Program-made: the position numbers and the translations under genes
The notes under the pieces: generated by a model
Told to the model about the DNA's origin: nothing
The model's input: only the letters and a program-made list of their open reading frames with translations
The model's database searches: none
In this document: positions 16,844-59,537 of the stretch, one piece after another
How positions within the stretch are numbered: the first letter of the stretch is position 1
How the letters are laid out: each line of letters starts with the position of its first letter
Origin: Clostridia bacterium
GTDB lineage: Bacteria > Bacillota > Clostridia > Oscillospirales > CAG-272
Assembly: GCA_029007295.1 (NCBI GenBank)
Contig: JAQXHN010000014.1
Span: 58,813 to 122,812 of the forward strand
Direction of reading: 5' to 3'
DNA length: 64,000 nt

Positions 16844-16935
16844 ACAATCACCGCCTTTATACCATTACAGTTACAACTATAATATATACGGCGTTGCATT
16901 ATTTAATACAAAGATTATATAAGGAGTAATATAAA

Positions 16936-17406: not shown

Positions 17407-17427
17407 CGAATAGGTTGGGTGTATAAA

Positions 17428-18822
17428 ATGAGTGTAAAAAAAACATTGACCGGAATTATTGTCGGGGCGACAATTCTTACATCGATTACGGGCCACGGTG
17501 CGTTTGCAAAGAAATTTGACGATACAGCAGACGGAAAATGGTATTCGGGAGCCGTAGATTTTTGTTCTGAGCGTCTTTATATGGCGGGTACCGATGAAAA
17601 CAGCTTTTCTCCCGATAAGCTGATAACGAGGCAGGAGCTTGCTGCTATTCTTCATTCTCTCGACAACAGTCCTACATACGACCTTGACGACGAGGAGCTC
17701 GGCGAGCCGTACCCGTTTCCGGATATTCAGCGAAGCGACTGGTTTAAGGATGATGTTTTGTGGGTTAACACAAAAAAGCTGATGACGGGTTATCCTGACG
17801 GAAAGTTCGGCGTAGGATATACGGTTAGCCGTCAGCAGATGGCGCTTACTCTTTATAATTTAGCAGATTATCGCGGCAACGACATAACAACAAGAGACTC
17901 TCTATCACGCTTTAAGGATGCGGATAAAGTTGCAGCATGGGCAAAAGACGCACTTCAATGGGCTGTTTCAAAGGGAGTTATCGCAGGAGCCAATGATAAA
18001 TACGGCGATCTGTACCTAAATCCCAACGGAAAAGTAACAAGAGCCGAGGCCGCTTGTATGGTGCGTTCATTCTATCAGAAAATAACGGCTCCGATTTACA
18101 AAGGAACAAATAAGGGAACCTATATGCTGCTGGGCGGAAGCGGAAAGGGCAGTAATAACGAGAGTGATGTAAGGCAGGAAATTCAGGATATTGCGAGAGG
18201 AGAAAAGCCGAATTTACTTTACATCGGACTTGCGGTAAAAGACCCTTCCGGCGATTTTTCATGGATTAAACAGGCGTTTGCCCACGGCGAGGAAACGGTA
18301 TGCGATCTTTTATCCGAGGAGGACATCAAGGACAGCGAGATTGCAAGCAAAAAAATCGCCGACGCCGACATAATATATGTAGGCGGCGGAGATACGGTAC
18401 GTATGATAGGCTTGATGAAGCAGTACGGAATTGACGCCATGCTAAGAGACGCGGCTGCAAACGGCTGTGTCATGGCAGGCTCAAGCGCAGGAGCAATTTG
18501 CTTTTGCGAGAGCGGTGAATCCTCCGTTTCGCCCTCCTTTATGAGAATAGACGCCATCGGATGCCTGAATATCCTTTATTGTCCCCACGCATATGAGGAG
18601 CCGGCAAGATATGAGCTTATGAAAAAGGAGCTTATGAACACTCCTTATATGGTAGGAGTTGCAATGGACGGTGCGGCGCTTGAAATCAAGGACGGACAGT
18701 ATAGGGCGGTAATATACGCATATTATCACACGGCGGATATTGTCCGTGTGGTTAACGGAGAGGTAGTTTCGGAGCCGATGAGCACCGAATGGAGACCTCT
18801 TTCAGAGCTTGTGGGAGAATAA
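17428..18822 (+). CDS. SLH-domain protein fused to peptidase S51 (dipeptidase E / cyanophycinase-like) domain
   Basis: Signal peptide and SLH repeats (FDDTADGKWYSGAV, FPDIQRSDWFKDDV, FKDADKVAAWAKDAL). C-terminal IIYVGGGDTVRM...VMAGSSAGAICF is the S51 nucleophile-elbow context. Start 17428 (ATG) or 17419 (GTG). Confidence 0.75.
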   Translation: MSVKKTLTGIIVGATILTSITGHGAFAKKFDDTADGKWYSGAVDFCSERLYMAGTDENSFSPDKLITRQELAAILHSLDNSPTYDLDDEELGEPYPFPDIQRSDWFKDDVLWVNTKKLMTGYPDGKFGVGYTVSRQQMALTLYNLADYRGNDITTRDSLSRFKDADKVAAWAKDALQWAVSKGVIAGANDKYGDLYLNPNGKVTRAEAACMVRSFYQKITAPIYKGTNKGTYMLLGGSGKGSNNESDVRQEIQDIARGEKPNLLYIGLAVKDPSGDFSWIKQAFAHGEETVCDLLSEEDIKDSEIASKKIADADIIYVGGGDTVRMIGLMKQYGIDAMLRDAAANGCVMAGSSAGAICFCESGESSVSPSFMRIDAIGCLNILYCPHAYEEPARYELMKKELMNTPYMVGVAMDGAALEIKDGQYRAVIYAYYHTADIVRVVNGEVVSEPMSTEWRPLSELVGE

Positions 18823-32745: not shown

Positions 32746-33594
32746 ATGAAAAACAAGATTGCCGTTCTCGGCAATGACAGCAGATTTGCATTTTGTGTAA
32801 ATGCGCTTTCGGAAAAAGGATATAATGCCACGGCGGGCAGCGGCAGCGGAGTTTCGGATTTTGATAATTGCATAAAAAATTCGATTGCCTGTGTTGTCGG
32901 TGTTCCGATGTCGAGGGACGATATGTATTTGTCCGGCGTCGGAAATTCGCTTAAAATTTCACTTGAACATTTTTTTGAAAGATGTTCACAGAGCAATGCG
33001 TGCGTTTTCGGGGGACTTATTTCCGCAAAAACCCGTAACAAAGCAGAAAAATACGGTGTACGCATCTTTGATTATCAGGAGGATGAAGCTTATCTTTTAA
33101 GAAATGCGAAATGCACGGCGACCGCTTCGTTAAGCCTTATGATGAATACGCTTACCGTGTCGCCGGATACGGCAAGCGCCCTTATTATAGGTAACGGCAG
33201 GGTGGGAAAGGCTCTTTCACATGTTCTTTGCTGTGTCGGCACCGATGTTACGGTTTGCGCAAGGAGCAAGCGGGATCTTGCTTATGCACACTGTTCGGGC
33301 TGCGATACCGTCGATATTTCCCGCGGTATCTGTGATTTACCGTACTGCGATATTGTATTCAATACGGTGCCTAATATGATTTTTGACACAAATAATGTAG
33401 GAAAAATATCGGAAAACGCTTTTGTATGCAATCTTGCCTCCCGAAACGGAGGCTTCAGCGACGGCGCAAGGGAACTTCTCGGAGAAAGATATCTGTGTGC
33501 GTCCTCCTTACCGGGAAAGATTTTCCCCGAAACGGCAGGGTATGATCTTGCCGAGGCTGTTTCGGATATAATCGAAAGAGAGGGTTTGCTATGA
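32746..33594 (+). CDS. dpaA: dipicolinate synthase subunit A
   Basis: MKNKIAVLGNDSR... N-terminus and Rossmann GNGRVGKA. Overlaps dpaB by 4 nt. Confidence 0.75.
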   Translation: MKNKIAVLGNDSRFAFCVNALSEKGYNATAGSGSGVSDFDNCIKNSIACVVGVPMSRDDMYLSGVGNSLKISLEHFFERCSQSNACVFGGLISAKTRNKAEKYGVRIFDYQEDEAYLLRNAKCTATASLSLMMNTLTVSPDTASALIIGNGRVGKALSHVLCCVGTDVTVCARSKRDLAYAHCSGCDTVDISRGICDLPYCDIVFNTVPNMIFDTNNVGKISENAFVCNLASRNGGFSDGARELLGERYLCASSLPGKIFPETAGYDLAEAVSDIIEREGLL

Positions 33595-34157
33595 TAGGAT
33601 ATGCTATGTGCGGTTCCTTTTGCACCGTAGAAAAAGCTCTTAATCAGATGAGAGAGCTTGTCAAAATGGGAAACGAAATTCTGCCGATTTTATCCGAAAA
33701 TCTGATAAAGAACGATACAAGATTCGGAAAGGGAAGCGAAATAGTCGAAAACGTACGGTTAATAGCCCAAAACGAGCCTGTGACAACTATAGCAGGAGCA
33801 GAACCGTTAGGACCTAAAATCCGTCTTGAGGCTTTGATTATCGCCCCCTGCACGGGAAATACCTTGGCAAAAATTTCATCCGGAATAACGGATACCTGCG
33901 TTACCATGGCATATAAAGCGCACCGGCGCTCGCTTCGTCCGACAATTATTGCGCTGGCCTCGAATGACGCTCTCTCCGTGGGATTATGCAATATCGGAAG
34001 CATGCTGCAGAAGAAAAATGTATTTTTCGTTCCGATGGTTCAGGATTCGCCGACGTCCAAGCCGAATTCGCTTGTTTGCGATTACTCCCAAATTCCGAGA
34101 GCGCTTACCTACGCTCTGTCGGGAAGACAGATTTTGCCGATGTTTTTAACGGAATAA
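33591..34157 (+). CDS. dpaB: dipicolinate synthase subunit B (flavoprotein)
   Basis: GYAMCGSFCT and IAPCTGNTLAKISSGITDT motifs typical of SpoVFB. Confidence 0.85.
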   Translation: MIGYAMCGSFCTVEKALNQMRELVKMGNEILPILSENLIKNDTRFGKGSEIVENVRLIAQNEPVTTIAGAEPLGPKIRLEALIIAPCTGNTLAKISSGITDTCVTMAYKAHRRSLRPTIIALASNDALSVGLCNIGSMLQKKNVFFVPMVQDSPTSKPNSLVCDYSQIPRALTYALSGRQILPMFLTE

Positions 34158-34217: not shown

Positions 34218-35369
34218 TCAACGGCGTCTTATTTTTACCAACCGTTCAATTCCTTCTTTAAAGGCGTCGGCGACATACTCGATATCGCCGTCGGAAAGAT
34301 TATCCTCAAAGGAAAGTCTGAGGGTGCAGTCTGCGTCAAAATCGGACAGTCCGAAATCCGAAAGCACATAGCTGGCATGACCCGTATTTGACGAGCAAGC
34401 CGAGCCGCTTGATACGAATATGCCCTTTGACGAAAGGAAATGAAGCATTGTTTCACTCTTTATGCTCGGTAAAGTCACGCTGAGTATTCCCGGGTAGTAA
34501 TCTGCGCAGGGAGTATTGATTTTTACCGATTCGGGAAGAGCATTAATGAGCTTTTGACGGATTTCACCTATTTTGTCAAGGTTCGGTGTATGCAAAACCG
34601 CTTCACCGAGCCCGACGATCCCGAGCGTGTTTTCGGTACCCGAACGGATTCCGGATTCCTGACCTCCTCCGTATAAAAAGGGGATAATTTTCTTTTTCTT
34701 TATCATCTCGTCGCTTATGTAAAGACCGCCGACTCCCTTCGGCGCATGGATCTTGTGTCCTGAAAAGGAGATCAAATCCGCCTTCATTTTTTTAGGATTA
34801 AGCTTCAGCTTGCCAAATGCCTGAACTGCGTCGGTGTGAGTTATGATATCGGGATTATAGGACTTAACGGCGGAAAACAGATTTTCAATACCGTAAATTG
34901 CGCCGGTTTCGTTGTTTACGGTCATAATGCTGACAAGAAAAGTTTTTTCGTTGAGAGCGTTTTTTAATTCGTCCGGGCTGATAACCCCGCCCTTGGCGGA
35001 AAGACGGACGACGTCAAATCCGTCCTTTTCGAGCTTTTTCATACATTCAAGCACGGACGGATGCTCCGTTGCGCTTGTTATTATCCTGCCTTGGCGGTAG
35101 CATTGCTTTGAATAAGCGGTACCGAAAATTGCGGTATTGTTTGACTCAGAGCCGCAGGAGGTAAAAATGATATTATGCTCCTTTGAGGTAACAAGAGCAA
35201 GAGCCTTTGCGACATTTTGCCTAGCGCGGCGTATTTGCGCTTCTGCATTGACACCGAGCGTGTGCAGCGAAGACGGATTGCCGAAGCAATCCATAACGCT
35301 CATTATTGCGCCCTTAACCTCCTCCGAAAGGGGAGTTGTTGCGCTGTTGTCAAGATAAACAGTATTCAT
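34218..35369 (-). CDS. nifS: cysteine desulfurase (NifS/IscS, class V aminotransferase)
   Basis: YLDNSATTP, PLP-lysine context SGHKIHAPKGVG, and active-site SSGSACSS. Confidence 0.9.
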   Translation of the reverse strand: MNTVYLDNSATTPLSEEVKGAIMSVMDCFGNPSSLHTLGVNAEAQIRRARQNVAKALALVTSKEHNIIFTSCGSESNNTAIFGTAYSKQCYRQGRIITSATEHPSVLECMKKLEKDGFDVVRLSAKGGVISPDELKNALNEKTFLVSIMTVNNETGAIYGIENLFSAVKSYNPDIITHTDAVQAFGKLKLNPKKMKADLISFSGHKIHAPKGVGGLYISDEMIKKKKIIPFLYGGGQESGIRSGTENTLGIVGLGEAVLHTPNLDKIGEIRQKLINALPESVKINTPCADYYPGILSVTLPSIKSETMLHFLSSKGIFVSSGSACSSNTGHASYVLSDFGLSDFDADCTLRLSFEDNLSDGDIEYVADAFKEGIERLVKIRRR

Positions 35370-35965
35370 CAGTTGAATCTGACGTTCTTAACGATTTTAT
35401 CGACATCGTCAAGGTGAGAGTCAAACGCTTCTTCGGTTGCGGTGTAGCAGAAGATGTAAACATCGGTACCGTGTACGCATACTATTTGAATGAATTTGTA
35501 GTCTGTTCCGTCAAGCTGTGCGGAAAAGGTATACTTGTTTGCGTCGAGTCCGTCAAGCTTGACCGTGGAGTAATTAACCGCAACCGATTTTCCGTCTTCT
35601 GTTGTTTCTTCGCCGTAGGTTTCGTATTTGATGTCGGATAACACGTCCTTTAACTTGTTCTCATAGTATTCCCAGTAGGATTTTGCGTCGGAAATATATT
35701 TGCCGTCGGGGGTTAATGCGTCGTCCGGGACGGTGTACGCCGTAAACGATATATTGGAGCGGTCAGTGGAGGAAGCGTATGCGCTTGCAAAGCCACTCGA
35801 CATATCGGCGACCCATTCATTCGGAATGTAAACAGTATATGAGCCGGAGGCTTGGTCGAGAATTTTCATTCCGTCAGGCGCGTCGGATTCCGTTGAAGCG
35901 CAGGATACAAGAACAAAAATTACGGCCGTACATATCAAAAGGGAAACGATATTCTTTATTTTCAT
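35369..35965 (-). CDS. lipoprotein of unknown function
   Basis: MKIKNIVSLLICTAVIFVLVSCAS signal with a lipobox. GGGAG RBS before ATG 35965. The stop overlaps the nifS start (TGATG). Confidence 0.65.
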   Translation of the reverse strand: MKIKNIVSLLICTAVIFVLVSCASTESDAPDGMKILDQASGSYTVYIPNEWVADMSSGFASAYASSTDRSNISFTAYTVPDDALTPDGKYISDAKSYWEYYENKLKDVLSDIKYETYGEETTEDGKSVAVNYSTVKLDGLDANKYTFSAQLDGTDYKFIQIVCVHGTDVYIFCYTATEEAFDSHLDDVDKIVKNVRFN

Positions 35966-36106
35966 AATGGAAGCTCCCGATTTTTTTCTTTTCATTATAC
36001 TATCGGAAAAATCAGTATACAAGACAATATTTGTAAACAATAGGGACGAAAAAAAGCAAAACCTCGGCGAAAAAAACGGATTTTGCCGTTTTCGGTATCA
36101 TTATTT

Positions 36107-39215: not shown

Positions 39216-39575
39216 ATGATGTTCGGAAAAAAGAAAAAAATCGAACCTGCCTCACAGGAAAAGAAAGAAAAGCCGATCCCCTCTTATCTTTGCGAAGATT
39301 ATCCGTATAAAGCGATAGGGCAACGGATTACGGACCTTGATTCTCTAAAGCAAAACGGCGTTGTTTATGAAATTATGTGTCCAGAATGCAAGCTCAGTAT
39401 TCGCTCGCAGGGCTGTAATATTAAGACTGCATACGAAAAAATGATGAATGAAAAGGGATGTGTCGGCTGCGGCGGCAGGGAGCTTATTGTCAAGGAAGTC
39501 TGTATGAGCAAAACAACCGACGATCAATCGGAAGGCTTATCAAGCCGGTGCTTCGATAAAACCGACAATATTTAA
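39216..39575 (+). CDS. hypothetical small protein with CxxC...CxxC zinc-ribbon
   Basis: 119 aa with a Lys-rich N-terminus and CPECK...CVGCGG. The stop is 1 nt before the next gene's ATG. Confidence 0.5.
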   Translation: MMFGKKKKIEPASQEKKEKPIPSYLCEDYPYKAIGQRITDLDSLKQNGVVYEIMCPECKLSIRSQGCNIKTAYEKMMNEKGCVGCGGRELIVKEVCMSKTTDDQSEGLSSRCFDKTDNI

Positions 39576-39576
39576 A

Positions 39577-40719
39577 ATGGACAAAAATAAATGCCTCGAT
39601 ATTTTTTTCGCTCTTTTGACTTCTCAGCTGACCGGCGGCAATAAGGTCAGCCTTGACGGTATCACGGAGGAAGAGATAGGCTATATTTTTTCGCTTGCAA
39701 AAGCTCATGAGCTTTTGCCGATAGTATTATCGGCCGTTTCGCACTCCGACAGCCGTTTTGCAAAAAGCTCTGCCGTAAAAAACGGCATATATAAAGCAAT
39801 AGGAATTCATGAAAGAAAGCTTACCGCCAAGGATACAATCGTCGGCATTTTGGAAGCGGAAAAAATTGATTATATACTGTTAAAGGGAAGTGCGATAAGC
39901 AGCTTATATCCCGTTTATTGGTGGCGTACCTTCGGTGACATTGACATCCTGATAAAAAGGGAGGATGTCTTAAGGGCAACGGACGCTTTGAAAAGAAAAA
40001 GTGATTTCCTGATAACGGTAAGCGGATATAAAGACATTCAAATTTTATATTGCTCTAACGAAAAAATAGAATTGCATTTGTCTCTGTCTGGTATTAACGG
40101 CAATAAGGCTTCGTGCGTGCTTGACAGAGTGTGGGATTATTCCGTCAGAAAAAATAAAGACGTAAGCGAACATGTTTTAAATGACGAAATGCTTTTCTTC
40201 TATCATTTATCGCATATGGCCTCCCATTTTCAAAACGGGGGCTGCGGTATAAGATTCTTTTGCGATTATTATCTGTTACTGAAAAACAAAGATTGCGATT
40301 TTAATAAATTAAACGAAATGCTCAGACAAGCGGGTCTTGAAAAATTTGCAGACTGTGTTTTACGGATATGTAATATGTGGTTTGAAGGAAAAAACGACGA
40401 CGGTGTTAAGGAGACTGCCGAGTATATTATTTCTACCGGAAATTTCGGCACAAGGAAAACGTTTCTCGGAACTAAGTGCTCTCAAAAGGGGACGTTCAGA
40501 TATGTTTTGTCGAGGATATTTATTTCTCACGCAGAGCTGTGCGAATTATATCCGAGCTTGAAAGAGAAAAAATATAAGGCTCCCGTTTTCAGAATCAAAT
40601 ATTTGGGTTCTGTTTTTTTCGACCGTAATCGCTTTACCCGCGCTGCGAAGGATTATCTTAAAATAAATAAAAACGACAAAAATAAAATAAAACGGATTTT
40701 AGATACAGTCGGGTTATAA
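39577..40719 (+). CDS. uncharacterised nucleotidyltransferase family protein (NTP_transf_5-like)
   Basis: LLKGSAISSLYPVYWWRTFGDIDILI is the characteristic G[SA]..(x)..DIDxL nucleotidyltransferase block. Confidence 0.65.
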   Translation: MDKNKCLDIFFALLTSQLTGGNKVSLDGITEEEIGYIFSLAKAHELLPIVLSAVSHSDSRFAKSSAVKNGIYKAIGIHERKLTAKDTIVGILEAEKIDYILLKGSAISSLYPVYWWRTFGDIDILIKREDVLRATDALKRKSDFLITVSGYKDIQILYCSNEKIELHLSLSGINGNKASCVLDRVWDYSVRKNKDVSEHVLNDEMLFFYHLSHMASHFQNGGCGIRFFCDYYLLLKNKDCDFNKLNEMLRQAGLEKFADCVLRICNMWFEGKNDDGVKETAEYIISTGNFGTRKTFLGTKCSQKGTFRYVLSRIFISHAELCELYPSLKEKKYKAPVFRIKYLGSVFFDRNRFTRAAKDYLKINKNDKNKIKRILDTVGL

Positions 40720-40759
40720 TTGTATTTAATTGAGAATCCGAAGCTCGAAAGGAAGAATA

Positions 40760-41734
40760 ATGGAAATAAATTCCGAAAATAATCAAACAGTGTCTTTCAA
40801 TCAGAACACGGAAAAAAGAAGCGTTTCTTCAAATGATAGGCAGAGCGAGGCTTTATCGTTTAATATCATTGATTTTTTTGAAGTTCTTCTTAAAAGATTA
40901 TGGATTATCATTCTTGTAGGTGCCATGGTTACCGTTGGAATCTACTACAGAGACAAGAAGAATTACACGCCGAGATATACCTCAACAGCAACGCTGTATA
41001 TGCTGTTTGAGAATCAGGTAAGCGACAATGCGTCTTATGCGTACAATTTTGCCAAGGCCCTGATAGGGGATATTCAGTATTGTATTATCAGCTCGCCGAC
41101 GGCAAAGATTACATACGACAGGCTAAAGGATTACAATATCAGCTACAACGAGATATACGGCTCTGTTTCAACCGAAAATCCGGAGGATACGAGATACGTT
41201 TTGGTAACGTCAGTTGCCTCCTCTCCGGAAAAGGCAAAGCTTATTGTAAATACAATATGTCAGGTCTGCAAGGAAAAAATGAAGGAGGATACCGGAGACG
41301 AGGTAGTAAACATTTCAGCTCCCGGGGAAGAGGTTAACACGCCTATAAATGCCGTCTCCATAAACAGGGGTCTGAAATACGGACTTATTTCGTCGGCGCT
41401 GTTGTTGGCGGTGTTCTATGTCCTGCGCATGTTTGACGACAGATTCAGAGACGAATACGATATGGAAAAAACCTTGAACGTTACCTTGCTCGGATCAATT
41501 CCCGACGCAAATTCCGCAGTATCCGGAAAGTATTCACGTTACGGTAAACGAAGAAGAAAATACAAATACGGCGGAAAATACGGCTACGGTTACGGCTACG
41601 GTTATACCTACGGCTACGGCTCCGCATACGGCGGAAGAGAAAGAACCTCTTTGACAAAGACCGCCGACAAAAAGATGAAGAAGAAAAACAAAAAGACGCA
41701 CGACAAAAATTCTGTAGATTCGGAGGCACAGTGA
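40760..41734 (+). CDS. Wzz/CpsC/YwqC-like chain-length determinant (BY-kinase transmembrane modulator) with atypical Tyr/Gly-rich C-terminal tail
   Basis: Two TM helices flank an extracytoplasmic domain. The juxtamembrane DEYDMEKTLNVTLLGSIP motif normally ends such modulators, but here it is followed by about 70 extra aa including KYKYGGKYGYGYGYGYTYGYGSAYGG. Confidence 0.8.
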   Translation: MEINSENNQTVSFNQNTEKRSVSSNDRQSEALSFNIIDFFEVLLKRLWIIILVGAMVTVGIYYRDKKNYTPRYTSTATLYMLFENQVSDNASYAYNFAKALIGDIQYCIISSPTAKITYDRLKDYNISYNEIYGSVSTENPEDTRYVLVTSVASSPEKAKLIVNTICQVCKEKMKEDTGDEVVNISAPGEEVNTPINAVSINRGLKYGLISSALLLAVFYVLRMFDDRFRDEYDMEKTLNVTLLGSIPDANSAVSGKYSRYGKRRRKYKYGGKYGYGYGYGYTYGYGSAYGGRERTSLTKTADKKMKKKNKKTHDKNSVDSEAQ

Positions 41735-41735
41735 T

Positions 41736-42398
41736 ATGGAAAATACTCAGAAGAAAATAAAAGTCACTGTCCCCGGGCAGGATAGCTACTTTATGCAGGA
41801 GGCTGTTAAGGTTATCAGAACCAATCTTGAATTTTGCGGACGGGATATCAAGACAATAGCCTTTACAAGCTACGGAGAAAACGAAGGAAAGACCACGGTT
41901 TCCGTCTTTATAGCAAAGAGCCTGGCGGAGCTCGGCAAAAAAGTTTTGTTTGTGGACGCAGATATGAGAAAATCGGTTTTTGCGGTAAGAAACACCGATT
42001 CCACCGATTACTCAGGTCTTAGCGAGGTGCTCAGCGGAATAAAGGCCCTTGACGAATGTATCCGTGAAACGACGCAGGACGGACTTTATATTCTGCAGTC
42101 CGGAAAATACCCACCGAATCCTGTCGAACTGATTAACAGCAAGTATTTTGAAGATTTGATTGTCAACTCTAAACAGATATTTGACTACGTCATTATCGAC
42201 ACGCCTCCCATAGGCTATACCATTGACGCCGCAATCATTTCCGGAATTTCCGACGGTGTTGTTATCATTATAGGTGACCCGAATCTGAAAAGGCGCCAGG
42301 CGAAATCAATGATGACTCAGCTAAGCAAAGCAAACTGTCACATTCTCGGGCTCATCAGAAACAATATAAAAAGACAGTCAAAAAAAAGGTACAGATAA
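41736..42398 (+). CDS. CpsD/CapB/YwqD-family bacterial tyrosine kinase (cytoplasmic subunit) lacking a C-terminal Tyr cluster
   Basis: Walker A GENEGKTT, Walker A' VLFVDADMRK, Walker B YVIIDTPP. The C-terminus ...NNIKRQSKKRYR has a single Tyr. Confidence 0.85.
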   Translation: MENTQKKIKVTVPGQDSYFMQEAVKVIRTNLEFCGRDIKTIAFTSYGENEGKTTVSVFIAKSLAELGKKVLFVDADMRKSVFAVRNTDSTDYSGLSEVLSGIKALDECIRETTQDGLYILQSGKYPPNPVELINSKYFEDLIVNSKQIFDYVIIDTPPIGYTIDAAIISGISDGVVIIIGDPNLKRRQAKSMMTQLSKANCHILGLIRNNIKRQSKKRYR

Positions 42399-42434: not shown

Positions 42435-44399
42435 ATGAAGTGGATTGAACGGCTTCTGATCAATATCAGCAAGCGAGTTCACGGAAGGGCTCGAATTGCG
42501 GTGTTGATCCTCGTAGATTTTGCTATTTTTGCATTGATTGACTCTATTTATTATCTCGCTTCACAACATTTATATTCTGATCCTATGCATTCGTCGTTTG
42601 AATTATATTTGAACGGCTCCGTTATACTGCTTTTATGCACTTTTGCTACCAGAATCATTACGAGAATATACAGAAATGTATGGAGATTTCCCAATACCGG
42701 CGCATATCTGAAATTAATCCTTTCAGATGCTGTTGCCACGTTAATTGCAATAATAATAAGCGAGGTTATCGGCAAATACGCAGGAATATGGCATTTTGTT
42801 ACGGTAATTTCTCTCTCATTGCTTTTGACCCTGATATCAAGATTTATATACCGCATTTTATACAAGAAGCTATATAAGACCGAGAATATGGGAGAAGAAA
42901 CCGACCGAAAGCTGACAAATGTGGCGATTGTCGGTGCGGGACAGCTCGGCGTATATCTTGCGAAGGAAATAAGCAACGATTACACGCTCGGATATAAAGT
43001 TTGCTGCTTTATAGATATCGATAACGAAAAGACCGGCGGTTATATTTCCGGTATCAAGATCGAGAATTCCGGCGAAATGCAAAAAATAGTCAGTCGATAT
43101 TCGATAGAAAAATTTATTATAGCAATAGATAAAATATCTAATCAGGCGCTGACAAATCTCTATAATCGATGTAATTCCTTCGGATGCGACGTAAAAATTT
43201 TCGACGCTCCGTTCAGAAAAGAAAATGAGTACGAAAAAACGAACACAAAAAAAGTCATACGCGATTTTACAATAGAGGATTTGCTTTTCCGCGATCAGGT
43301 AAAACTGCTTGAAAAAGATGTAATTGACTATTATTCCGGCAAAACGGTGATGATTACCGGGGGCGGTGGCTCTATCGGAAGCGAAATATGCAGACAGATT
43401 GCAAAATGCAATCCGAAAAGGATAATAATATTCGATATTTACGAAAACAACGCATATGATATTCAGCAGGAGCTTACGCTGAAATATAACGATAAGCTTG
43501 ATCTGCGAGTTGAAATCGGCTCGGTTAGAGATTACGACAGATTGAGCGCTGTTTTTGATTATTACAGACCGGAAATAGTGTTTCATGCCGCAGCGCATAA
43601 GCACGTGCCCCTGATGGAGCACTGCGTATGCGAGGCTATTAAGAACAATGTGCTTGGTACATACAATACCGTAAATGTCGCAGAAAAATATGAGGTTGAA
43701 AAATTCATAATGATTTCTACCGACAAGGCGGTGAATCCTACTAACGTTATGGGAGCCTCCAAACGGATATGCGAGATGATTGTCCGTTCGCATTCCGATT
43801 CAAGGACATGCTTTTCCGCTGTCAGGTTCGGGAACGTATTAGGCTCGAACGGCTCGGTCATCCCGTTATTCAGAAGACAAATCGAAGCCGGCGGTCCGGT
43901 TACAATTACCGATAAGAGAATTATTCGATACTTTATGACAATTCCGGAGGCAAGTCAGCTTGTGCTGACGGCGGGCAGTATGGCAAAGTCCGACGAGCTG
44001 TTTGTGCTTGATATGGGCAATCCCGTTAAGATTTACGATTTATGCGTTAATATGATCCGTCTTATGGGATATGAGCCCGATAAGGATATAGAGATAAGGG
44101 AAATTGGGCTGAGACCCGGCGAAAAGCTTTACGAGGAGCTTTTGGTTCAGAGCAAGAATTTGTCAAAAACCGATAATGACAGAATCTTTATCGAGCATGA
44201 GGCTCCCGTTGACACAGTCGCTATGGCGGAAAATCTGAACAAGCTGTTCCTTGCGGTTGAAAATAACAAGAATACTCTTGATATGAGTGAAATATACGAT
44301 ACGATACGGTCGGTGGTTCCTACCTTCCGCAGTCCGGACTATGTAAATAAAAACGCACTGGACTCAATGGAAATGAAGCTTGTAAACAGCGGCATTTAA
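42435..44399 (+). CDS. capD: membrane-bound polysaccharide biosynthesis protein CapD/PglF/WbpM-type (UDP-GlcNAc 4,6-dehydratase family)
   Basis: 4 N-terminal TM helices, two Rossmann regions (VGAGQLG; ITGGGGSIGSE), and an SDR catalytic region. Confidence 0.88.
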   Translation: MKWIERLLINISKRVHGRARIAVLILVDFAIFALIDSIYYLASQHLYSDPMHSSFELYLNGSVILLLCTFATRIITRIYRNVWRFPNTGAYLKLILSDAVATLIAIIISEVIGKYAGIWHFVTVISLSLLLTLISRFIYRILYKKLYKTENMGEETDRKLTNVAIVGAGQLGVYLAKEISNDYTLGYKVCCFIDIDNEKTGGYISGIKIENSGEMQKIVSRYSIEKFIIAIDKISNQALTNLYNRCNSFGCDVKIFDAPFRKENEYEKTNTKKVIRDFTIEDLLFRDQVKLLEKDVIDYYSGKTVMITGGGGSIGSEICRQIAKCNPKRIIIFDIYENNAYDIQQELTLKYNDKLDLRVEIGSVRDYDRLSAVFDYYRPEIVFHAAAHKHVPLMEHCVCEAIKNNVLGTYNTVNVAEKYEVEKFIMISTDKAVNPTNVMGASKRICEMIVRSHSDSRTCFSAVRFGNVLGSNGSVIPLFRRQIEAGGPVTITDKRIIRYFMTIPEASQLVLTAGSMAKSDELFVLDMGNPVKIYDLCVNMIRLMGYEPDKDIEIREIGLRPGEKLYEELLVQSKNLSKTDNDRIFIEHEAPVDTVAMAENLNKLFLAVENNKNTLDMSEIYDTIRSVVPTFRSPDYVNKNALDSMEMKLVNSGI

Positions 44400-44432: not shown

Positions 44433-46133
44433 ATGAATAAAAAGAGCATTGTTTTCTTTCTTTGTATTACCGCATTGTTTCTTATTTGTCAGTTTACCAT
44501 TTGTGCGGAAGATACCTTCGTCAAAATCGGAAGTGTAATGTTAACCGAAACAACAAACGATGTTTTCGGGGACGGCAGTGCGTCTTATAATCGTGAAAGC
44601 AACGTACTTACCTTAAACGGTTATAGGAGCAACGGAGCAGTATATCCTTTTGACGGCGATAAGGGTGCGGCTATTTATTCTAACGGCGACATTACCCTAA
44701 GGCTTACGGGTGAAAACACGGTTGAGAACGATATCCCCACCTCGGCTTCTTTTGCGATTTATATTGACGGCAGTCTTACAATAGACGGTGACGGAATATT
44801 GAACGCTTCATCATTGCAAGCTGTTACGGAATCCTGCGGGATATACGCAAGTAAGGGCATTATTGTACGTTCGGGCACGGTTAGTGCCTGTTCTGCAGAT
44901 ATACCGTCGGAAATAAGCAACGGAAAAAGTGCCGGAATAATCGGCAATTCAGGTATTACCGTTAAGGGAGGAATACTCAGCGGTATCGGCGGAGAAGCTC
45001 CGTTTCGCAGCTACGGCGTTGTAGCGGATACGGTTAGAGTAAGCGGCGGAAGACTTTACGGAGAGGCAAAAAAATCAGAGTTCTCCATAGGTATTCGCTC
45101 GGACGGCTCAATTGAGTTAACCGACGGAGAAATATACGGTATCGGCGCAGATGCGTCGGATAACAGCTACGGAATTCATATAACCGAAACAGACGCAAAA
45201 TTAACGGTGGACGGCGGAAAAGCCGAATGCCGAGGCGGCAAGGACGCCTTAATAACTTCCAGCGGAATACGCATGGCGGGCGTAACGGACGGCGTTTATT
45301 TGACCGGGGGCGCAGTGCTGTGCAGCGGAGACACTTACGGGTTTGACGGGGCTAAGGGTCCATATCTTTCAAGACGGGGAAAAATCACCGCAATAGGCGG
45401 CGTTCAGGCGTATTCGACAGCGATGATATTTTCACACATGCCTCCGACGTTTCTAAATCCGAATTATGAAATAACGGTAGGCTCTAACGCCGAAAACAGC
45501 GTAAAGCTTACAAATTCTTCCGATATTTCTTTTAAAAGCAAATATATTGATATTACCTGCGCTGTGATATTTGCCGACGTCCCCGAGGACGCATGGTATG
45601 CAAAGTCGGTAAAATACTGCAGTGATAAATCCTACATGAACGGTACCGGCGAAACAGAGTTTTCCCCCTCGTCGCCTCTGACCAGAGCCATGCTTGTTCA
45701 GATACTCGCAAAGATAGAGGGGGCGGATTTGTCCGAGTACAAAGATGTTTCTTCATTTGACGACGTTTTACCGGGACGATGGTACTCGTCGGCAGTAGAG
45801 TGGGCATATCGAAACAAAATTACCGAGGGCGTCGGAAATAATTTGTTTTCGCCGAGCTCAAACGTTTCAAGAGAGCAGACGGCGGTATTCCTTCGTGCTT
45901 ATGCCCAAAGGCGGGGAACGGATATAGAAAGAACAGCGGATATTTCAAATTATCCGGACGCTTCGGAGGTTCATTCATGGGCGTTTGACGCAATGGCGTG
46001 GGCTGTCGGAAACGGACTTATCTCCGGTGTAAAATCAGGGGATACAGTAACACTGTCGCCGCTTAATCCGTCAAGCCGAGCCATGGTATCGGTAATTATA
46101 ATGAATTTCGACAGTATGTTAAAGCGCAGATAA
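44433..46133 (+). CDS. SLH-anchored surface protein with beta-helix-like repeat region
   Basis: Signal peptide, then about 8 repeats of about 28 aa (..GI.s.G.I.v.GG.l...). Three C-terminal SLH repeats (FADVPEDAWYAKSV, FDDVLPGRWYSSAV, YPDASEVHSWAFDAM). Confidence 0.75.
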   Translation: MNKKSIVFFLCITALFLICQFTICAEDTFVKIGSVMLTETTNDVFGDGSASYNRESNVLTLNGYRSNGAVYPFDGDKGAAIYSNGDITLRLTGENTVENDIPTSASFAIYIDGSLTIDGDGILNASSLQAVTESCGIYASKGIIVRSGTVSACSADIPSEISNGKSAGIIGNSGITVKGGILSGIGGEAPFRSYGVVADTVRVSGGRLYGEAKKSEFSIGIRSDGSIELTDGEIYGIGADASDNSYGIHITETDAKLTVDGGKAECRGGKDALITSSGIRMAGVTDGVYLTGGAVLCSGDTYGFDGAKGPYLSRRGKITAIGGVQAYSTAMIFSHMPPTFLNPNYEITVGSNAENSVKLTNSSDISFKSKYIDITCAVIFADVPEDAWYAKSVKYCSDKSYMNGTGETEFSPSSPLTRAMLVQILAKIEGADLSEYKDVSSFDDVLPGRWYSSAVEWAYRNKITEGVGNNLFSPSSNVSREQTAVFLRAYAQRRGTDIERTADISNYPDASEVHSWAFDAMAWAVGNGLISGVKSGDTVTLSPLNPSSRAMVSVIIMNFDSMLKRR

Positions 46134-56165: not shown

Positions 56166-59100
56166 ATGATGAAAAAATTCAAACGCGTATGCGCTGTGAT
56201 TCTTTGCATCATGATGGTTATTCCTACGATGGCTTTTTCAGCTTCCGCAGCTGAAAGCCCGTGGATTTTCCTCGGCGGCAAATTCTCATCAAACGCTACG
56301 ACAATTATTTTTGACGGTGATAAGGTTCGCGATACCGGATTCACTTTCACGGAAAATGAAAACGGAGGCATAGACGTGCACTCTCCTTCCTATGAAGAGG
56401 CGGCGGGTGTATACGGCGTCAGCTTGCTTTCCAATAAAAATAAAACAACACTTGACAATTTAAGCGTTGTTATTACTCCGGGCGATACGTTTGATGCAAC
56501 CCGCGACAGCTTCGGCTTTTCCGACAGACTGAGCATTATGTTTTCGGAAAATGCAGTTACCGAGCTTTCGAGAAAAGAAGAGGGAACGGGCTCATATATC
56601 GGTCTGTACAATTATGAAATGGTCGGAACAAACGGTATCCGCCATCTTATGCCGAAAGAGGGAAATTCGCTTGTAGTATCGGTAAACAATACCTATGACG
56701 GTTATGACGGACAGATTTTCTCTGATGTAGCTATTGTAAAAGGCGACGGAGAGTTTGAAGACTATAACGATCACCGTCCCGGATACAGATGGGTATTCAC
56801 AGGCGAGACCGTCGGAGATAAGGTTACTTCTGAGTTTCTGCGTGTTGATGTATCGCGCGGACTTGTATTTGAGATAATTCCGGACACAACTCTCGGCTTC
56901 AAGGTTTCGGTTAACGGTAACGAATACTTCAGCGGTAAAAGCATAAAGTTTTTCCCCATTGACGTAGATAATTCCTTTTCTAAAAAGAGAGCCGATATCG
57001 ACCTTAGCAATTTGGTAGGTGTTCAGGGCTATTTGGCTATAGGCTCCTGCGCCGCATTCAAGAACGCTCTCGATTATACGGTTGAAAAAATTAACGGTTA
57101 CGATGCCGCAACCTGGGCAGGAGAAGCTCCTGCGGAGCATACTCATTCCTTCAACGTAACGGAAAAGGAAGTAGAATGTCTCAGCGACGGCATAGAATAT
57201 GTTGAGTGCGAATGCGGTCAGCACTATATCAGGAAAAACACAAAGCAGACCGGTCATATTTGGGCAACTAACAAGGATCCGATATTCCGTGACTGGGGAT
57301 ATTCCTTTACGGACACATATTGGTCTGAAAACATAACAAACACGTTCAGAACGTATACTTTTGTCGAATATCCTACCTGTACCGAAACCGGATTAAATCA
57401 CAAGGTTTGTAGGGTATGCGGAGAATCGGAGGATGATATTCTTCCCGCAAGAAATCATCAGGCCTTTTACATTAAGAAAGATGATAAGCAAAACGGAAAG
57501 AACAAGATATATTATGCAAACCGCTGGGGCGATTGGGAAATCACGACTCCGGCAACGGCAACAACAAAGGGCGTCAAAACAAGAACCTGTTTTATGTGCG
57601 GCGCAACCGAAACTATGGAGTATTCCAAGTGGGATGACCAAGAGGACATAAACGACAAATGGTATGTTTCGGGAGAAACAACTATTTCCCGTTCAAACGG
57701 CAATCTCACCGGTAAAGTAATCTATACAGCGGTTAATACCGACGGCAAGAGAGTTAAGACGGTTGTAGGTGAAGACGGTTCTATTTCTCTTCTTGACGCC
57801 GCCGCTCAGACGGGTGTGCTCGACGCTACTACATCGTACAACAACATTACGAAAATTACATCAAGGAACCAGTCCGATCTTAACGGCTTTTCCGCTACTG
57901 TTCAGATGATTCCGGTAAACGGAAAGTATGCGGATTCCATTAATTTCATATGGACAAACAAATATGACAGTTATAAGTATGCAGGACAGTATTCCGCAGG
58001 TTCATTCTCAAAGTCTCAAGGTTCGGCGATTGAGGATTCCCGTTTCGGATATCTGTGGGACTACTATATTCCGGGAGAAGAATATTCATTTGTTGTTACC
58101 TTGATGGACGGTCTTAATCTTTGGGACCAGTATTTCTACGGCACAATGAACGACAATATTTACGATGTTGCATTCTACAGCAGCATCTGCCGCGGCAATC
58201 TTTGGAATGTTAAGTACAGCGAAACAGGTATTAACCTTGAGACATACGACAACGAAAAGATAGCAATCGACGCTTCAGAGCCTATTTCCGTTCAGACAAA
58301 CTACTGCTACGACGAGGACGAATGCGTTCCGGATATTTTGTCGTTTGATTTAAACGGACTGCGAGTATTCGCATTGGAGATGAACGCCAGCCAGTCATAC
58401 GAAAAGATTTACCACTTCAGCACATGTGGCTTTGCGGCCGGCGCAGGCAGCAAGACCTCATCCTTTAAGCTTATCGACGTTTGCGGTCAAAGGGCGACAG
58501 ACTTTGTTTCCTTTGAAAACACCGAGGACTGCGAGCACGAGTGGGGCGAATATGTTTGGAATACCAAGGTAGTAATCCGAGACGGCAAGTATACCATAAT
58601 CAATGACGAGCCTGATTGCATTACAGAGGGTTCAAAAATTTCGACCTGTTCAAAATGCGAAGCAACAAGAAAGCTGATAATACCCGCTAAAGGCCATGAC
58701 TTCGGCAATGACGATATTATCAAGAGCCCTACCTGTACAAGCGACGGTATCGGAATGCATTATTGCAAGGTATGGTTCCTCTCTGATAAGGGAATCAATA
58801 CTCCCTGCAGCGATATAGAGTACTTCCTCATAAAGAGCAAAGGACATAAATTCGGCGAATGGGAAATTGTTGAAGAGGCAACAGACGACAAAGACGGACT
58901 TAAGAAGAGAACCTGCGAAATATGCTTGGAAGTTGAAGAAGAAAAAATTCCTGCGTTGAATCCCGTAATAGAAAATCCTTTCAAGGATTTACCGAAGGGT
59001 AAATGGTATACAGACCCCGCTCTTTGGTGCTATGCAAAGGGATATTTGACGGGACTTTCGGACACGGTGTTCGGACCCGACAACAAGCTTACAAGAGCGC

Positions 59101-59537
59101 AGTTTGTGCAGATTCTTGCAAAGGTATCAAATGCGGACCTCGACAGTATTGAATATAAGGATACGTTTAAGGACGTGCCTGAGGGCAAGTGGTACACAAA
59201 CGCAGTATTGTGGGCTTCTGAAAACGGCGTTACAAGCGGATTAGGAAACGGATTGTTCGGTACGGCTAATTATGTTACGAGAGAACAGCTCGCAACCTTC
59301 CTTTACAGCTATTCGAAGAAGGCGGGATGCGATGTTGACGCCAAGGCAGACATTACAGACTATGAAGATTACTCATCTGTTTCAACCTGGGCAAGAGACT
59401 CTTTGGCATGGGCGGTAAACGCTAAGCTGATTGCAAGTACAAGCACCGAGGCAAAGATTCTTTCGCCTAAGAATATTGCAACGCGCGGTCAGGCGGCGGT
59501 AATCATCAAAGCTCTGTGCCTGAACGTTCTTAAATGA
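56166..59537 (+). CDS. large SLH-anchored surface protein with two sets of Cys-rich zinc-ribbon-like modules
   Basis: Signal peptide. Domain (aa 30-320), Cys modules (aa 325-485), second domain (aa 490-785), Cys modules (aa 788-930), then three SLH repeats (FKDLPKGKWYTDPA, FKDVPEGKWYTNAV, YEDYSSVSTWARDSL). Confidence 0.85.
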   Translation: MMKKFKRVCAVILCIMMVIPTMAFSASAAESPWIFLGGKFSSNATTIIFDGDKVRDTGFTFTENENGGIDVHSPSYEEAAGVYGVSLLSNKNKTTLDNLSVVITPGDTFDATRDSFGFSDRLSIMFSENAVTELSRKEEGTGSYIGLYNYEMVGTNGIRHLMPKEGNSLVVSVNNTYDGYDGQIFSDVAIVKGDGEFEDYNDHRPGYRWVFTGETVGDKVTSEFLRVDVSRGLVFEIIPDTTLGFKVSVNGNEYFSGKSIKFFPIDVDNSFSKKRADIDLSNLVGVQGYLAIGSCAAFKNALDYTVEKINGYDAATWAGEAPAEHTHSFNVTEKEVECLSDGIEYVECECGQHYIRKNTKQTGHIWATNKDPIFRDWGYSFTDTYWSENITNTFRTYTFVEYPTCTETGLNHKVCRVCGESEDDILPARNHQAFYIKKDDKQNGKNKIYYANRWGDWEITTPATATTKGVKTRTCFMCGATETMEYSKWDDQEDINDKWYVSGETTISRSNGNLTGKVIYTAVNTDGKRVKTVVGEDGSISLLDAAAQTGVLDATTSYNNITKITSRNQSDLNGFSATVQMIPVNGKYADSINFIWTNKYDSYKYAGQYSAGSFSKSQGSAIEDSRFGYLWDYYIPGEEYSFVVTLMDGLNLWDQYFYGTMNDNIYDVAFYSSICRGNLWNVKYSETGINLETYDNEKIAIDASEPISVQTNYCYDEDECVPDILSFDLNGLRVFALEMNASQSYEKIYHFSTCGFAAGAGSKTSSFKLIDVCGQRATDFVSFENTEDCEHEWGEYVWNTKVVIRDGKYTIINDEPDCITEGSKISTCSKCEATRKLIIPAKGHDFGNDDIIKSPTCTSDGIGMHYCKVWFLSDKGINTPCSDIEYFLIKSKGHKFGEWEIVEEATDDKDGLKKRTCEICLEVEEEKIPALNPVIENPFKDLPKGKWYTDPALWCYAKGYLTGLSDTVFGPDNKLTRAQFVQILAKVSNADLDSIEYKDTFKDVPEGKWYTNAVLWASENGVTSGLGNGLFGTANYVTREQLATFLYSYSKKAGCDVDAKADITDYEDYSSVSTWARDSLAWAVNAKLIASTSTEAKILSPKNIATRGQAAVIIKALCLNVLK

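What the first reader, a model, noticed from the sequence alone, without database searches (positions are those of the whole stretch)
40760..42398. Tyrosine cluster relocated from the BY-kinase to its transmembrane modulator
In Firmicute two-component BY-kinases (CpsC/CpsD, CapA/CapB, YwqC/YwqD) the cytoplasmic kinase ends in a Tyr-rich autophosphorylation cluster. The modulator ends shortly after the activating juxtamembrane motif (..E.DIEK.LG.PVLGSI..). Here the kinase (41736-42398) has intact Walker A/A'/B but ends ...NNIKRQSKKRYR with no cluster. The modulator continues about 70 aa beyond DEYDMEKTLNVTLLGSIP. This tail reads SGKYSRYGKRRRKYKYGGKYGYGYGYGYTYGYGSAYGG (at least 12 Tyr) followed by a Lys-rich end. 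This suggests the phospho-acceptor module has moved to the activator subunit, so phosphorylation would be in trans between subunits. No phosphotyrosine phosphatase gene (CpsB/PHP or LMW-PTP) is visible in the locus.
Basis: partly seen in the sequence, partly recalled or inferred. Interest (0 to 1): 0.65.

Follow-up and report, generated by a model that had tools for sequence, protein, structure and literature searches.

The report
Tyrosine-rich tail on kinase activator
A gut Clostridia membrane protein that switches on a capsule-regulating tyrosine kinase carries its own tyrosine-rich tail; many relatives have this tail too, but here the kinase has almost lost its own tyrosine cluster, so the tail is the likeliest remaining phosphorylation target.

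Summary
The modulator (40760-41734) has a 76-residue disordered, cytoplasmic tail with 12 Tyr. The adjacent kinase (41736-42398) has intact Walker A/A'/B but only one Tyr after its core. No CpsB or LMW-PTP gene lies in the 64 kb. Independent assemblies agree on both protein ends.

"Relocated" is not the right description. I compared 110 distinct modulator/kinase pairs from genomes and metagenomes. Of these, 69 modulators carry at least 3 Tyr in the tail, and 65 of those sit beside a kinase that keeps at least 3 Tyr. Tyr counts of the two partners rise together (rho 0.34). The tail is therefore a clade-wide second cluster, and the window is a rare lineage that lost the kinase cluster. The syntenic relative L082 keeps cpsB, a 13-Tyr modulator tail and a 4-Tyr kinase tail.

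The tail starts exactly where S. aureus CapA1 ends, next to the nucleotide pocket and the platform that binds the substrate Y-cluster. Its first Tyr sits at a conserved +10 spacing behind a basic-Gly motif that resembles the kinase's own tail.

My best reading is a modulator-borne phospho-acceptor cluster (inferred, about 0.55). I found no report of this in the literature I could search. It is a new variant of a known kind, of moderate interest.

The parts
40760..41734 (+). PCP-2b type transmembrane modulator (CpsC/CapA-like), 324 aa; an alternative TTG start lies at 40730
   Evidence: TIGR01006 E 1.8e-18 and PF02706 E 6e-4. 34 homologues, mostly from Clostridia metagenomes. The AF2 model shows two TM helices flanking an ordered extracellular domain.
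40874..40945 (+). TM1 (about residues 39-62)
   Evidence: Hydropathy; AF2 helix 36-67.
41369..41437 (+). TM2 (about residues 204-226)
   Evidence: Hydropathy; AF2 helix 201-225.
41438..41503 (+). Juxtamembrane kinase-activating motif DRFRDEYDMEKTLNVTLLGSIP (residues 227-248)
   Evidence: Aligns with the CapA1 C-terminal fragment [28 protein letters not shown] in chimeras 2VED, 3BFV and 4JLV.
41504..41731 (+). 76-aa disordered cytoplasmic tail: a 9-aa spacer, a 38-aa G/Y/K/R segment with 12 Tyr (41531-41644), then a Lys-rich end
   Evidence: pLDDT is below 50 for almost all of 243-324. Residues 228-324 hold 23 K/R against 10 D/E.
41579..41632 (+). Hexanucleotide tandem repeat (TACGGC x9) that encodes the GY run
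   Evidence: TRF. Strain variant P0160 lacks four residues (GYGY) in frame.
41736..42398 (+). CpsD/CapB-type BY-kinase catalytic subunit, 220 aa: Walker A 41874-41897, A' 41943-41975, B 42186-42209
   Evidence: TIGR01007 181.7 bits against cut-off 108. Best PDB sequence matches are the CapA1Ct-CapB chimeras, E 6e-29. Motif positions.
42366..42395 (+). Residual kinase tail IKRQSKKRYR with a single Tyr (Y219)
   Evidence: Identical in 4 assemblies. Among the 120 closest kinases listed, most have at least 2 Tyr in the last 25 residues.
39577..40719 (+). NTP_transf_5 gene directly upstream. In the syntenic locus L082 a cpsB gene lies between this gene and the modulator; here the gap is only 40 nt.
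   Evidence: PF14907 E 1e-35. L082 gene order.
42435..44399 (+). CapD-like membrane-anchored sugar 4,6-dehydratase (Polysacc_synt_2), the downstream member of the conserved cassette
   Evidence: PF02719 E 5e-121. Same position in L082.
44433..46133 (+). SLH-domain surface protein, last member of the cassette that is syntenic with L082
   Evidence: PF00395 x3.

Best explanation
Shown.
- This is a two-component (F-type) BY-kinase pair from an uncultured Clostridia bacterium; the window also carries dipicolinate synthase genes and several SLH-domain proteins, which suggest a spore-former with an S-layer.
- Its modulator belongs to a large clade, mainly Oscillospirales-like gut MAGs. In this clade the cytoplasmic C-terminus extends past the kinase-activating motif into a disordered, basic, Gly/Tyr-rich tail.
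- In that clade the kinase normally keeps its own C-terminal Tyr cluster as well, so the systems carry two clusters, and cpsB usually sits directly upstream.
- The window lineage differs. Its kinase tail is reduced to one Tyr and cpsB is missing from the locus, while the modulator keeps a 12-Tyr tail.

Inferred.
- The modulator tail is a second phospho-acceptor cluster for the bound kinase. It leaves the complex at the point where CapA1 ends, beside the adenine pocket and the platform that binds the substrate Y-cluster.
- A conserved spacer of about 9 residues could deliver its first Tyr to the active site of its own kinase or of a neighbouring one in the ring.
- Phosphorylation of the tail would add negative charge around the ring and help drive the assembly/disassembly cycle that tunes polysaccharide production. 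A phosphatase encoded elsewhere in the genome would reset it.
- In the window this heterologous kinase-to-modulator phosphorylation would be the main or only cluster phosphorylation.
For: 1. The tail is a family trait under constraint.
- Nearly all of the 24 closest modulators have it.
- 69 of 110 distinct loci have it.
- 71 of 130 complete 50%-identity representatives have it.
- L082 and the window share only 43% modulator identity, yet both keep 12-13 Tyr.

2. Fixed geometry. The first Tyr lies at +10 after 'IP' in 44 of 69 tails, preceded by KKxGK. The kinase cluster's first Tyr lies at +8 after 'RNN' in 54 of 68, preceded by KKKxGG. This is the same basic-Gly-Tyr layout.

3. Partners evolve together. 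Tyr counts (rho 0.34, p 0.005) and GY/YG counts (rho 0.39, p 0.001) of modulator and kinase tails correlate. For example, in L027 both are GYGYGYGY runs.

4. Position. CapA1 ends at F221-N222, exactly where the window tail begins. F221 stacks on the adenine. N222, together with the CapB N-terminus, forms the platform for the substrate Y-cluster (PMC3795738; PMC2422856).

5. Kinases with at most 1 Tyr still keep an adjacent CpsB and a Tyr-bearing modulator: L084 (kinase 0, modulator 4), L085 (1, 2) and L010 (1, 3). A pTyr substrate other than the kinase tail is therefore implied.

6. CapAB lacking its Y-cluster still phosphorylates CapO (PMC2422856), so a clusterless kinase can be catalytically competent.

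7. The tail is predicted disordered and cytoplasmic, as Y-clusters are.
Against: - There is no biochemical evidence; phosphorylation of any modulator tail is untested.
- The residue aligned with the essential CapA1 F221 is Ala in the window, so the detailed geometry may differ from CapA/CapB.
- G/Y/K-rich low complexity can arise from repeat slippage; here it is a 6-nt repeat with a length polymorphism. Such sequence could serve other roles.
- No phosphatase lies in the 64 kb, so a reversible cycle is unproven for this organism.
- Y219 of the kinase remains and could be a minimal autophosphorylation site.
- The correlations are not phylogenetically corrected, and the metagenome sample is dominated by a few lineages.
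Confidence: 0.55

Rival explanations
1. True relocation or compensation. The acceptor module was transferred from kinase to modulator, so a modulator tail goes together with loss of the kinase cluster.
For: The window has kinase 1 Tyr and modulator 12 Tyr. All five kinases with at most 1 Tyr pair with modulators that have at least 2 Tyr, and none of 35 pairs with fewer than 2 modulator Tyr does. Median kinase Tyr count is 5 beside Tyr-tailed modulators and 9 beside Tyr-poor ones.
Against: 65 of 69 tail-bearing modulators sit beside kinases with at least 3 Tyr. 13 of the 15 with the largest tails have kinases with at least 4 Tyr. The within-clade correlation is positive. Fisher p is 0.18. The closest syntenic relative, L082, has both clusters. 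The tail therefore predates the loss, and the loss is rare.
Confidence: 0.12
2. The tail is not phosphorylated. It is a flexible, sticky, basic G/Y/K/R region. It could be a linker left over from, or equivalent to, the TAD-kinase linker of fused forms. It could also bind the membrane or drive clustering of the complexes.
For: In the fused Oscillospiraceae proteins P0029-P0032 the same GY-rich stretch is the linker between the modulator part and the kinase domain. Relatives without Tyr have Lys-rich tails at the same place. The tail is predicted disordered. It is repeat-encoded and varies in length.
Against: A plain linker or membrane-binding region does not explain the conserved +10 position of the first Tyr, the KKxGK-Y motif that mirrors the kinase cluster, or the co-variation with the partner's cluster. 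In split systems no linker is needed.
Confidence: 0.23
3. The system is decaying in this lineage. After losing cpsB and the kinase cluster, the pair works only as an ATP-dependent co-polymerase (GumC-like, independent of phosphorylation), and the tail is an inherited relic.
For: cpsB is absent while the syntenic L082 has it. The kinase tail is cut to one Tyr. No glycosyltransferase, flippase or polymerase genes flank the pair. GumC is a precedent for a BY-kinase-like domain without a Y-cluster (PMC9800525).
Against: All catalytic motifs and the invariant residues of the family are intact. The tail is kept intact in six assemblies and across 43% modulator identity to L082. cpsB is not adjacent in 24 of 106 loci, including L083 with full clusters on both partners. 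A phosphatase may be encoded elsewhere.
Confidence: 0.1

Closest known systems
S. aureus CapA1/CapB2 (also S. pneumoniae CpsC/CpsD and B. subtilis TkmA/PtkA, EpsA/EpsB): F-type two-component BY-kinases
   Same: Separate adjacent genes for a two-TM modulator and a P-loop kinase. The juxtamembrane activating motif aligns (..D.R...E.D.EK.L....LGSI..). Walker A/A'/B are present. The kinase core gives E 6e-29 to the CapA1Ct-CapB chimeras.
   Different: CapA1 ends 4 residues after LGSI, whereas here 76 more residues follow, with 12 Tyr. The CapB-type C-terminal Y-cluster is reduced to one Tyr. The residue aligned with CapA1 F221 is Ala. No cpsB or PTP gene lies in the locus.
Dual-cluster pairs in related gut Clostridia MAGs (for example L082, L001/P0007+P0101, L002, L008, L027)
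   Same: Same modulator family. Same tail layout (IPNA-x-KKxGK-YGYY..., then GY runs, then a Lys-rich end). L082 has the same cassette: NTP_transf_5, modulator, kinase, CapD-like, SLH.
   Different: Their kinases keep 4-14 Tyr, and most have cpsB directly upstream. The window has 1 Tyr and no cpsB.
P-type fused BY-kinases (E. coli Wzc) and the fused Oscillospiraceae proteins P0029-P0032
   Same: Same order of modules: TM activator domain, then kinase. In P0029-P0032 a GY-rich stretch sits between the activator and the kinase, exactly where the window's tail would lie if the two genes were fused.
   Different: The window genes are separate (TGA, 1 nt, then ATG, in a different frame). Wzc has no Tyr-rich linker, and its acceptor cluster is C-terminal to the kinase.
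Xanthomonas GumC-type co-polymerases without a Y-cluster
   Same: A BY-kinase-like cytosolic domain that lacks a C-terminal Y-cluster (PMC9800525).
   Different: GumC is described there as working without phosphorylation. The window kinase keeps all catalytic motifs and has a Tyr-rich partner tail.

Membership tests
BY-kinase catalytic subunit (CpsD/CapB, TIGR01007) | Profile match above the curated cut-off | tested here: met
   TIGR01007 181.7 bits against 108.05, profile positions 3-196 of 204.
BY-kinase catalytic subunit (CpsD/CapB, TIGR01007) | Walker A, Walker A' (DxD) and Walker B motifs | tested here: met
   GENEGKTT at 47, VLFVDADMRKS at 70, YVIIDTPP at 151. G51, K52, D74, D76, R78, D155, P157 and P158 are invariant in a 28-sequence alignment.
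BY-kinase catalytic subunit (CpsD/CapB, TIGR01007) | C-terminal Tyr cluster (several Tyr in a flexible tail) | tested here: not met
   The tail IKRQSKKRYR has one Tyr. The end is identical in 4 assemblies. No Tyr codons follow the stop.
BY-kinase catalytic subunit (CpsD/CapB, TIGR01007) | Tyrosine autokinase or substrate kinase activity | not testable with these tools
   Needs biochemistry.
PCP-2b modulator (CpsC/CapA; TIGR01006, PF02706 Wzz) | Profile match | tested here: inconclusive
   Significant E-values (TIGR01006 1.8e-18; PF02706 6e-4), but both fall below the curated cut-offs (66.8 against 296 bits; 20.4 against 25.5). Homologues carry PF02706.
PCP-2b modulator (CpsC/CapA; TIGR01006, PF02706 Wzz) | Two TM helices flanking an extracellular domain, with both ends cytoplasmic | tested here: met
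   Hydropathy peaks at 39-62 and 204-226; the C-terminal part is net positive. The AF2 model shows the same layout.
PCP-2b modulator (CpsC/CapA; TIGR01006, PF02706 Wzz) | C-terminal juxtamembrane activating motif next to a cognate kinase gene | tested here: met
   Aligns with CapA1Ct in 2VED, 3BFV and 4JLV. The kinase gene starts 1 nt after the stop. The F221-equivalent residue is Ala, so the aromatic contact to adenine is not conserved at that exact position.
Phospho-acceptor Y-cluster (as defined on BY-kinase C-termini) | Several Tyr in a flexible cytoplasmic tail within reach of the active site | tested here: met
   12 Tyr; pLDDT below 50; starts at the CapA1 C-terminal position beside the nucleotide pocket (PMC3795738).
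Phospho-acceptor Y-cluster (as defined on BY-kinase C-termini) | Phosphorylated by the kinase and dephosphorylated by a cognate PTP | not testable with these tools
   No experimental data. No PTP gene in the window.
P-type fused BY-kinase (Wzc-like) | Activator domain and kinase in one polypeptide | tested here: not met
   Stop TGA at 41732-41734 and ATG at 41736, in a different frame. The same split is seen in all strain variants.

The most novel reading that the evidence does not exclude
A large clade of gut Clostridia runs dual-cluster BY-kinase systems. In these, the transmembrane activator is itself a dedicated, multiply phosphorylated substrate. Its Tyr cluster is held at a fixed distance from the activating motif and is fed into the active site of its own kinase (in cis) or a neighbouring one. 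In lineages such as this window the kinase cluster has become dispensable. The assembly/disassembly switch is then controlled entirely by kinase-to-activator phosphorylation, so enzyme and acceptor are naturally separated.
Probability: 0.4. Interest if true: 0.7.

Novelty: new variant of a known kind. Interest (0 to 1): 0.5.

Why it matters
BY-kinase regulation is currently explained by autophosphorylation of the kinase's own C-terminal Y-cluster. That phosphorylation drives octamer disassembly and so sets the length and amount of the polysaccharide (PMC9800525, PMC2422856). A modulator-borne cluster would add a second charge switch on the membrane subunit. Such clusters are common in gut Clostridia: 55% of the 130 closest 50%-identity representatives have one.

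The window and a few relatives (L084, L085, L010, L007) have nearly clusterless kinases. They are natural constructs in which enzyme and acceptor are separate proteins. That makes it straightforward to ask by experiment whether phosphorylation is cis or trans and what the cluster does.

It also matters for annotation. Rules that require a kinase Y-cluster (the BYKdb-style signature) would reject kinases like this one. Nothing here is hazardous or clinically pressing; the interest is mechanistic.

Tried and rejected
- Sequencing or assembly artefact, or a frameshift hiding a kinase cluster: rejected. No Tyr codons follow the stop in any frame, and the ends are identical in independent assemblies.
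- A second kinase, modulator or CpsB elsewhere in the window: none found.
- LMW-PTP by C-x5-R-S/T signature: only spurious hits outside real genes. Pfam on all ORFs of 150 aa or more taken as genes shows no PHP or LMWPc.
- Identifying the organism through the look-up of encoding contigs on the window kinase: it returned only a 927-nt Logan contig. The genome-contig scan returned no locus above 55% identity, so the species was not recovered.
- Literature search for a Tyr cluster on a modulator: nothing found. One search was too unspecific to be useful. The library lacks many subscription papers, so absence is not proof.
- Modelling the modulator-tail/kinase complex: not attempted. The structure tool takes single chains from the window or from homologue searches only, and the natural fused relatives offer only four near-identical sequences.
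- Negative correlation as support for relocation: across all 74 pairs of the first sample rho was -0.26 (p 0.03). This reflects a difference between clades (Lachnospiraceae-type against Oscillospirales-type). It reverses within the tail-bearing clade.
Full report
WHAT IS THERE

The two ORFs are as described. ORF 40760-41734 encodes a 324-aa protein. An upstream TTG at 40730 is an alternative start. The protein matches the CpsC chain-length-determinant subfamily TIGR01006 (E 1.8e-18) and, weakly, Wzz PF02706.

Hydropathy gives two TM segments, at about residues 39-62 and 204-226. The C-terminal part is strongly basic, with 23 K/R against 10 D/E. An AlphaFold2 model built on 22 homologues gives TM helices at 36-67 and 201-225. 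Between them lies a confidently folded extracellular domain. A short helix follows at 232-239, and pLDDT is below 50 for almost all of 243-324.

After the juxtamembrane motif DRFRDEYDMEKTLNVTLLGSIP the protein continues for 76 residues:
- a 9-residue spacer, DANSAVSGK;
- a 38-residue Gly/Tyr/Lys/Arg segment with 12 Tyr;
- a Lys-rich end.

The GY run is encoded by a hexanucleotide tandem repeat, TACGGC x9, at 41579-41632.

One nucleotide after the stop codon, ORF 41736-42398 encodes a 220-aa CpsD/CapB-type kinase. It scores 181.7 bits on TIGR01007 against a cut-off of 108. Walker A, A' and B are intact. Its best matches among solved structures are the S. aureus CapA1Ct-CapB chimeras (E 6e-29).

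The kinase ends LGLIRNN-IKRQSKKRYR. So it is not strictly Tyr-free. One Tyr (Y219) remains at +9, about where relatives' clusters begin (+8). No Tyr codon follows the stop in any frame.

Both ends are real. Four independent assemblies have the same kinase end, and six have the same modulator tail. One of those six has an in-frame loss of GYGY, which is a repeat-number polymorphism.

THE LOCUS

The cassette reads: epimerase (38227), a small Cys-rich ORF, NTP_transf_5, modulator, kinase, CapD-like dehydratase, SLH protein. Housekeeping and sporulation genes flank it: a MurC-like ligase, aminotransferases and DpaA/DpaB. No glycosyltransferase, flippase or polymerase gene is adjacent.

I found no phosphotyrosine phosphatase gene in the 64 kb:
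- tblastn and an HMM built from four CpsB proteins give nothing;
- no LMW-PTP signature lies in a real ORF;
- Pfam shows no PHP or LMWPc domain.

The closest informative relative is L082, whose kinase P0037 is 68-70% identical. It has the same gene order, but a cpsB gene lies between NTP_transf_5 and the modulator. Its modulator tail has 13 Tyr and its kinase tail has 4. In the window only 40 nt separate NTP_transf_5 from the modulator.

SURVEY

I collected loci in three ways:
- a kinase alignment scanned against one genome per GTDB species (80 loci);
- a modulator alignment scanned against metagenome contigs (80 loci);
- direct look-ups of chosen proteins.

Tails were cut objectively, using HMMs anchored at 'LG.IP' for the modulator and 'LG..RNN' for the kinase. 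This gave 110 distinct pairs.

Results:
- 69 modulators have at least 3 Tyr in the tail, and 65 of these are paired with a kinase that has at least 3 Tyr.
- For the 15 modulators with at least 8 Tyr, the kinase counts are 1 (the window), 3, 4, 5, 5, 6, 6, 6, 7, 10, 11, 12, 12, 14, 14.
- Within the tail-bearing clade the partners' Tyr counts correlate positively (rho 0.34, p 0.005). So do their GY/YG counts (rho 0.39, p 0.001).
- Lachnospiraceae-type relatives have Lys-rich tails with few or no Tyr, and kinases with YYGK repeats.
- Kinases with at most 1 Tyr are rare, 5 of 110. All five sit beside modulators with at least 2 Tyr (5/75 against 0/35). Fisher p is 0.18, and the sample is not phylogenetically independent.
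- Three of those five (L010, L084, L085) still have cpsB directly upstream.
- cpsB is present in 82 of 106 loci where it could be assessed.

An exhaustive profile search of 1.84 billion cluster representatives puts the family at 808 clusters with E at or below 1e-30. Among the 130 complete best representatives, 71 have at least 3 tail Tyr and 16 have at least 8.

The Tyr-rich tail is therefore a widespread clade trait that normally accompanies a kinase cluster. The window is a rare derivative that lost the kinase cluster.

HOW IT PROBABLY WORKS

The modulator's activating motif aligns residue for residue with CapA1Ct in the crystallised chimeras. CapA1 ends at F221-N222, precisely where the window tail begins.

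In those structures F221 stacks on the adenine of the bound nucleotide. N222, together with the first residues of CapB, forms the basic platform on which the substrate Y-cluster binds (PMC3795738; PMC2422856). An extension from this point emerges at the mouth of the active site.

Across the clade the first Tyr of the tail sits at +10 after 'IP' in 44 of 69 cases, preceded by KKxGK. The kinase's own cluster starts at +8 after 'RNN' in 54 of 68 cases, preceded by KKKxGG. The two tails thus present the same basic-Gly-Tyr layout.

Five lines of evidence point to a second phospho-acceptor cluster:
- this shared layout at a conserved spacing;
- the co-variation of the two partners' tails;
- the predicted disorder and cytoplasmic location of the tail;
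- the retention of CpsB beside clusterless kinases;
- the fact that CapAB lacking its cluster still phosphorylates CapO.

In the window it would be the principal acceptor. This step is inference. No phosphorylation data exist.

RIVALS

(a) Genuine relocation or compensation. The survey contradicts it as a rule, and only the non-significant 5/75 against 0/35 hints at it.

(b) A non-phosphorylated sticky or basic linker-like region. This is supported by the fused proteins P0029-P0032, where the same GY stretch links the activator and kinase domains. The repeat-driven length variation also fits. It does not explain the conserved Tyr register or the resemblance to the kinase cluster.

(c) A decaying system in this lineage, with no cpsB, one kinase Tyr and no neighbouring polysaccharide genes. 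Against this, the catalytic motifs are intact and the tail is conserved.

COMPARISON AND NOVELTY

The pair is an F-type BY-kinase system (CapA/CapB, CpsC/CpsD). The kinase fails one defining feature, the C-terminal Y-cluster. The modulator carries a feature that is not part of the family description.

The reviews and primary papers I could read place the Y-cluster only on the catalytic domain (PMC9800525, PMC4007543, PMC2422856, PMC3245071). Targeted searches found no report of a modulator-borne cluster. The library is incomplete, so this is not proof of absence.

I rate it a new variant of a known kind. Interest is moderate. The surprise is less the single window than the existence of a large dual-cluster clade, which includes natural variants with nearly clusterless kinases that make the mechanism testable.

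Noticed in passing
window 40719-40760, compared with L082 6301-7026: cpsB (PHP-type phosphotyrosine phosphatase) lies between NTP_transf_5 and the modulator in the syntenic relative L082. In the window it is cleanly absent: the gap is 40 nt and tblastn finds no remnant.
   Followed up: yes
window 41579-41632: The GY run is a hexanucleotide tandem repeat (TACGGC x9). One strain variant (P0160) lacks 12 nt (GYGY) in frame, so the number of tail Tyr varies between strains by repeat slippage.
   Followed up: partly
window 39216-39575 (+): A 119-aa ORF with CPEC...CVGCGG (zinc-ribbon-like Cys pairs) and no Pfam match, sitting between the epimerase and the NTP_transf_5 gene.
   Followed up: no
P0029-P0032 (about 505 aa, Oscillospiraceae MAGs): Natural fusions of modulator and kinase. 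A GY-rich stretch (for example GKYGRYGYGYRKRYGYGYGYGYG) forms the inter-domain linker, and the kinase C-terminus is also Tyr-rich. This is the same two-cluster layout in a single chain.
   Followed up: partly
L064 (Lachnospiraceae bacterium UBA7060), kinase ORF: The kinase reading frame continues for more than 600 aa beyond its Y-cluster, through a hydrophobic stretch into a further long region. This is either a gene fusion or a missing stop codon in the assembly. I excluded it from the statistics.
   Followed up: no
window 12620-15166, 17419-18822, 44433-46133, 56166-59537: Four SLH-domain proteins in 64 kb, one of them fused to a peptidase S51 domain. Together with dpaA/dpaB-like genes at 32746-34157, this suggests a spore-forming Clostridia member with an S-layer or secondary cell-wall polymer.
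   Followed up: no
window 35369-36040 (-) and 16395-16922 (+): ORFs of 223 and 175 aa with no Pfam match. The second overlaps the AI-2E transporter gene on the opposite strand and is probably not a gene.
   Followed up: no
L084 and L085 (kinases P0092, P0139): Kinases with 0-1 tail Tyr beside cpsB and modulators with short tails of 2-4 Tyr. These independent examples of nearly clusterless kinases could serve as further test cases.
   Followed up: partly
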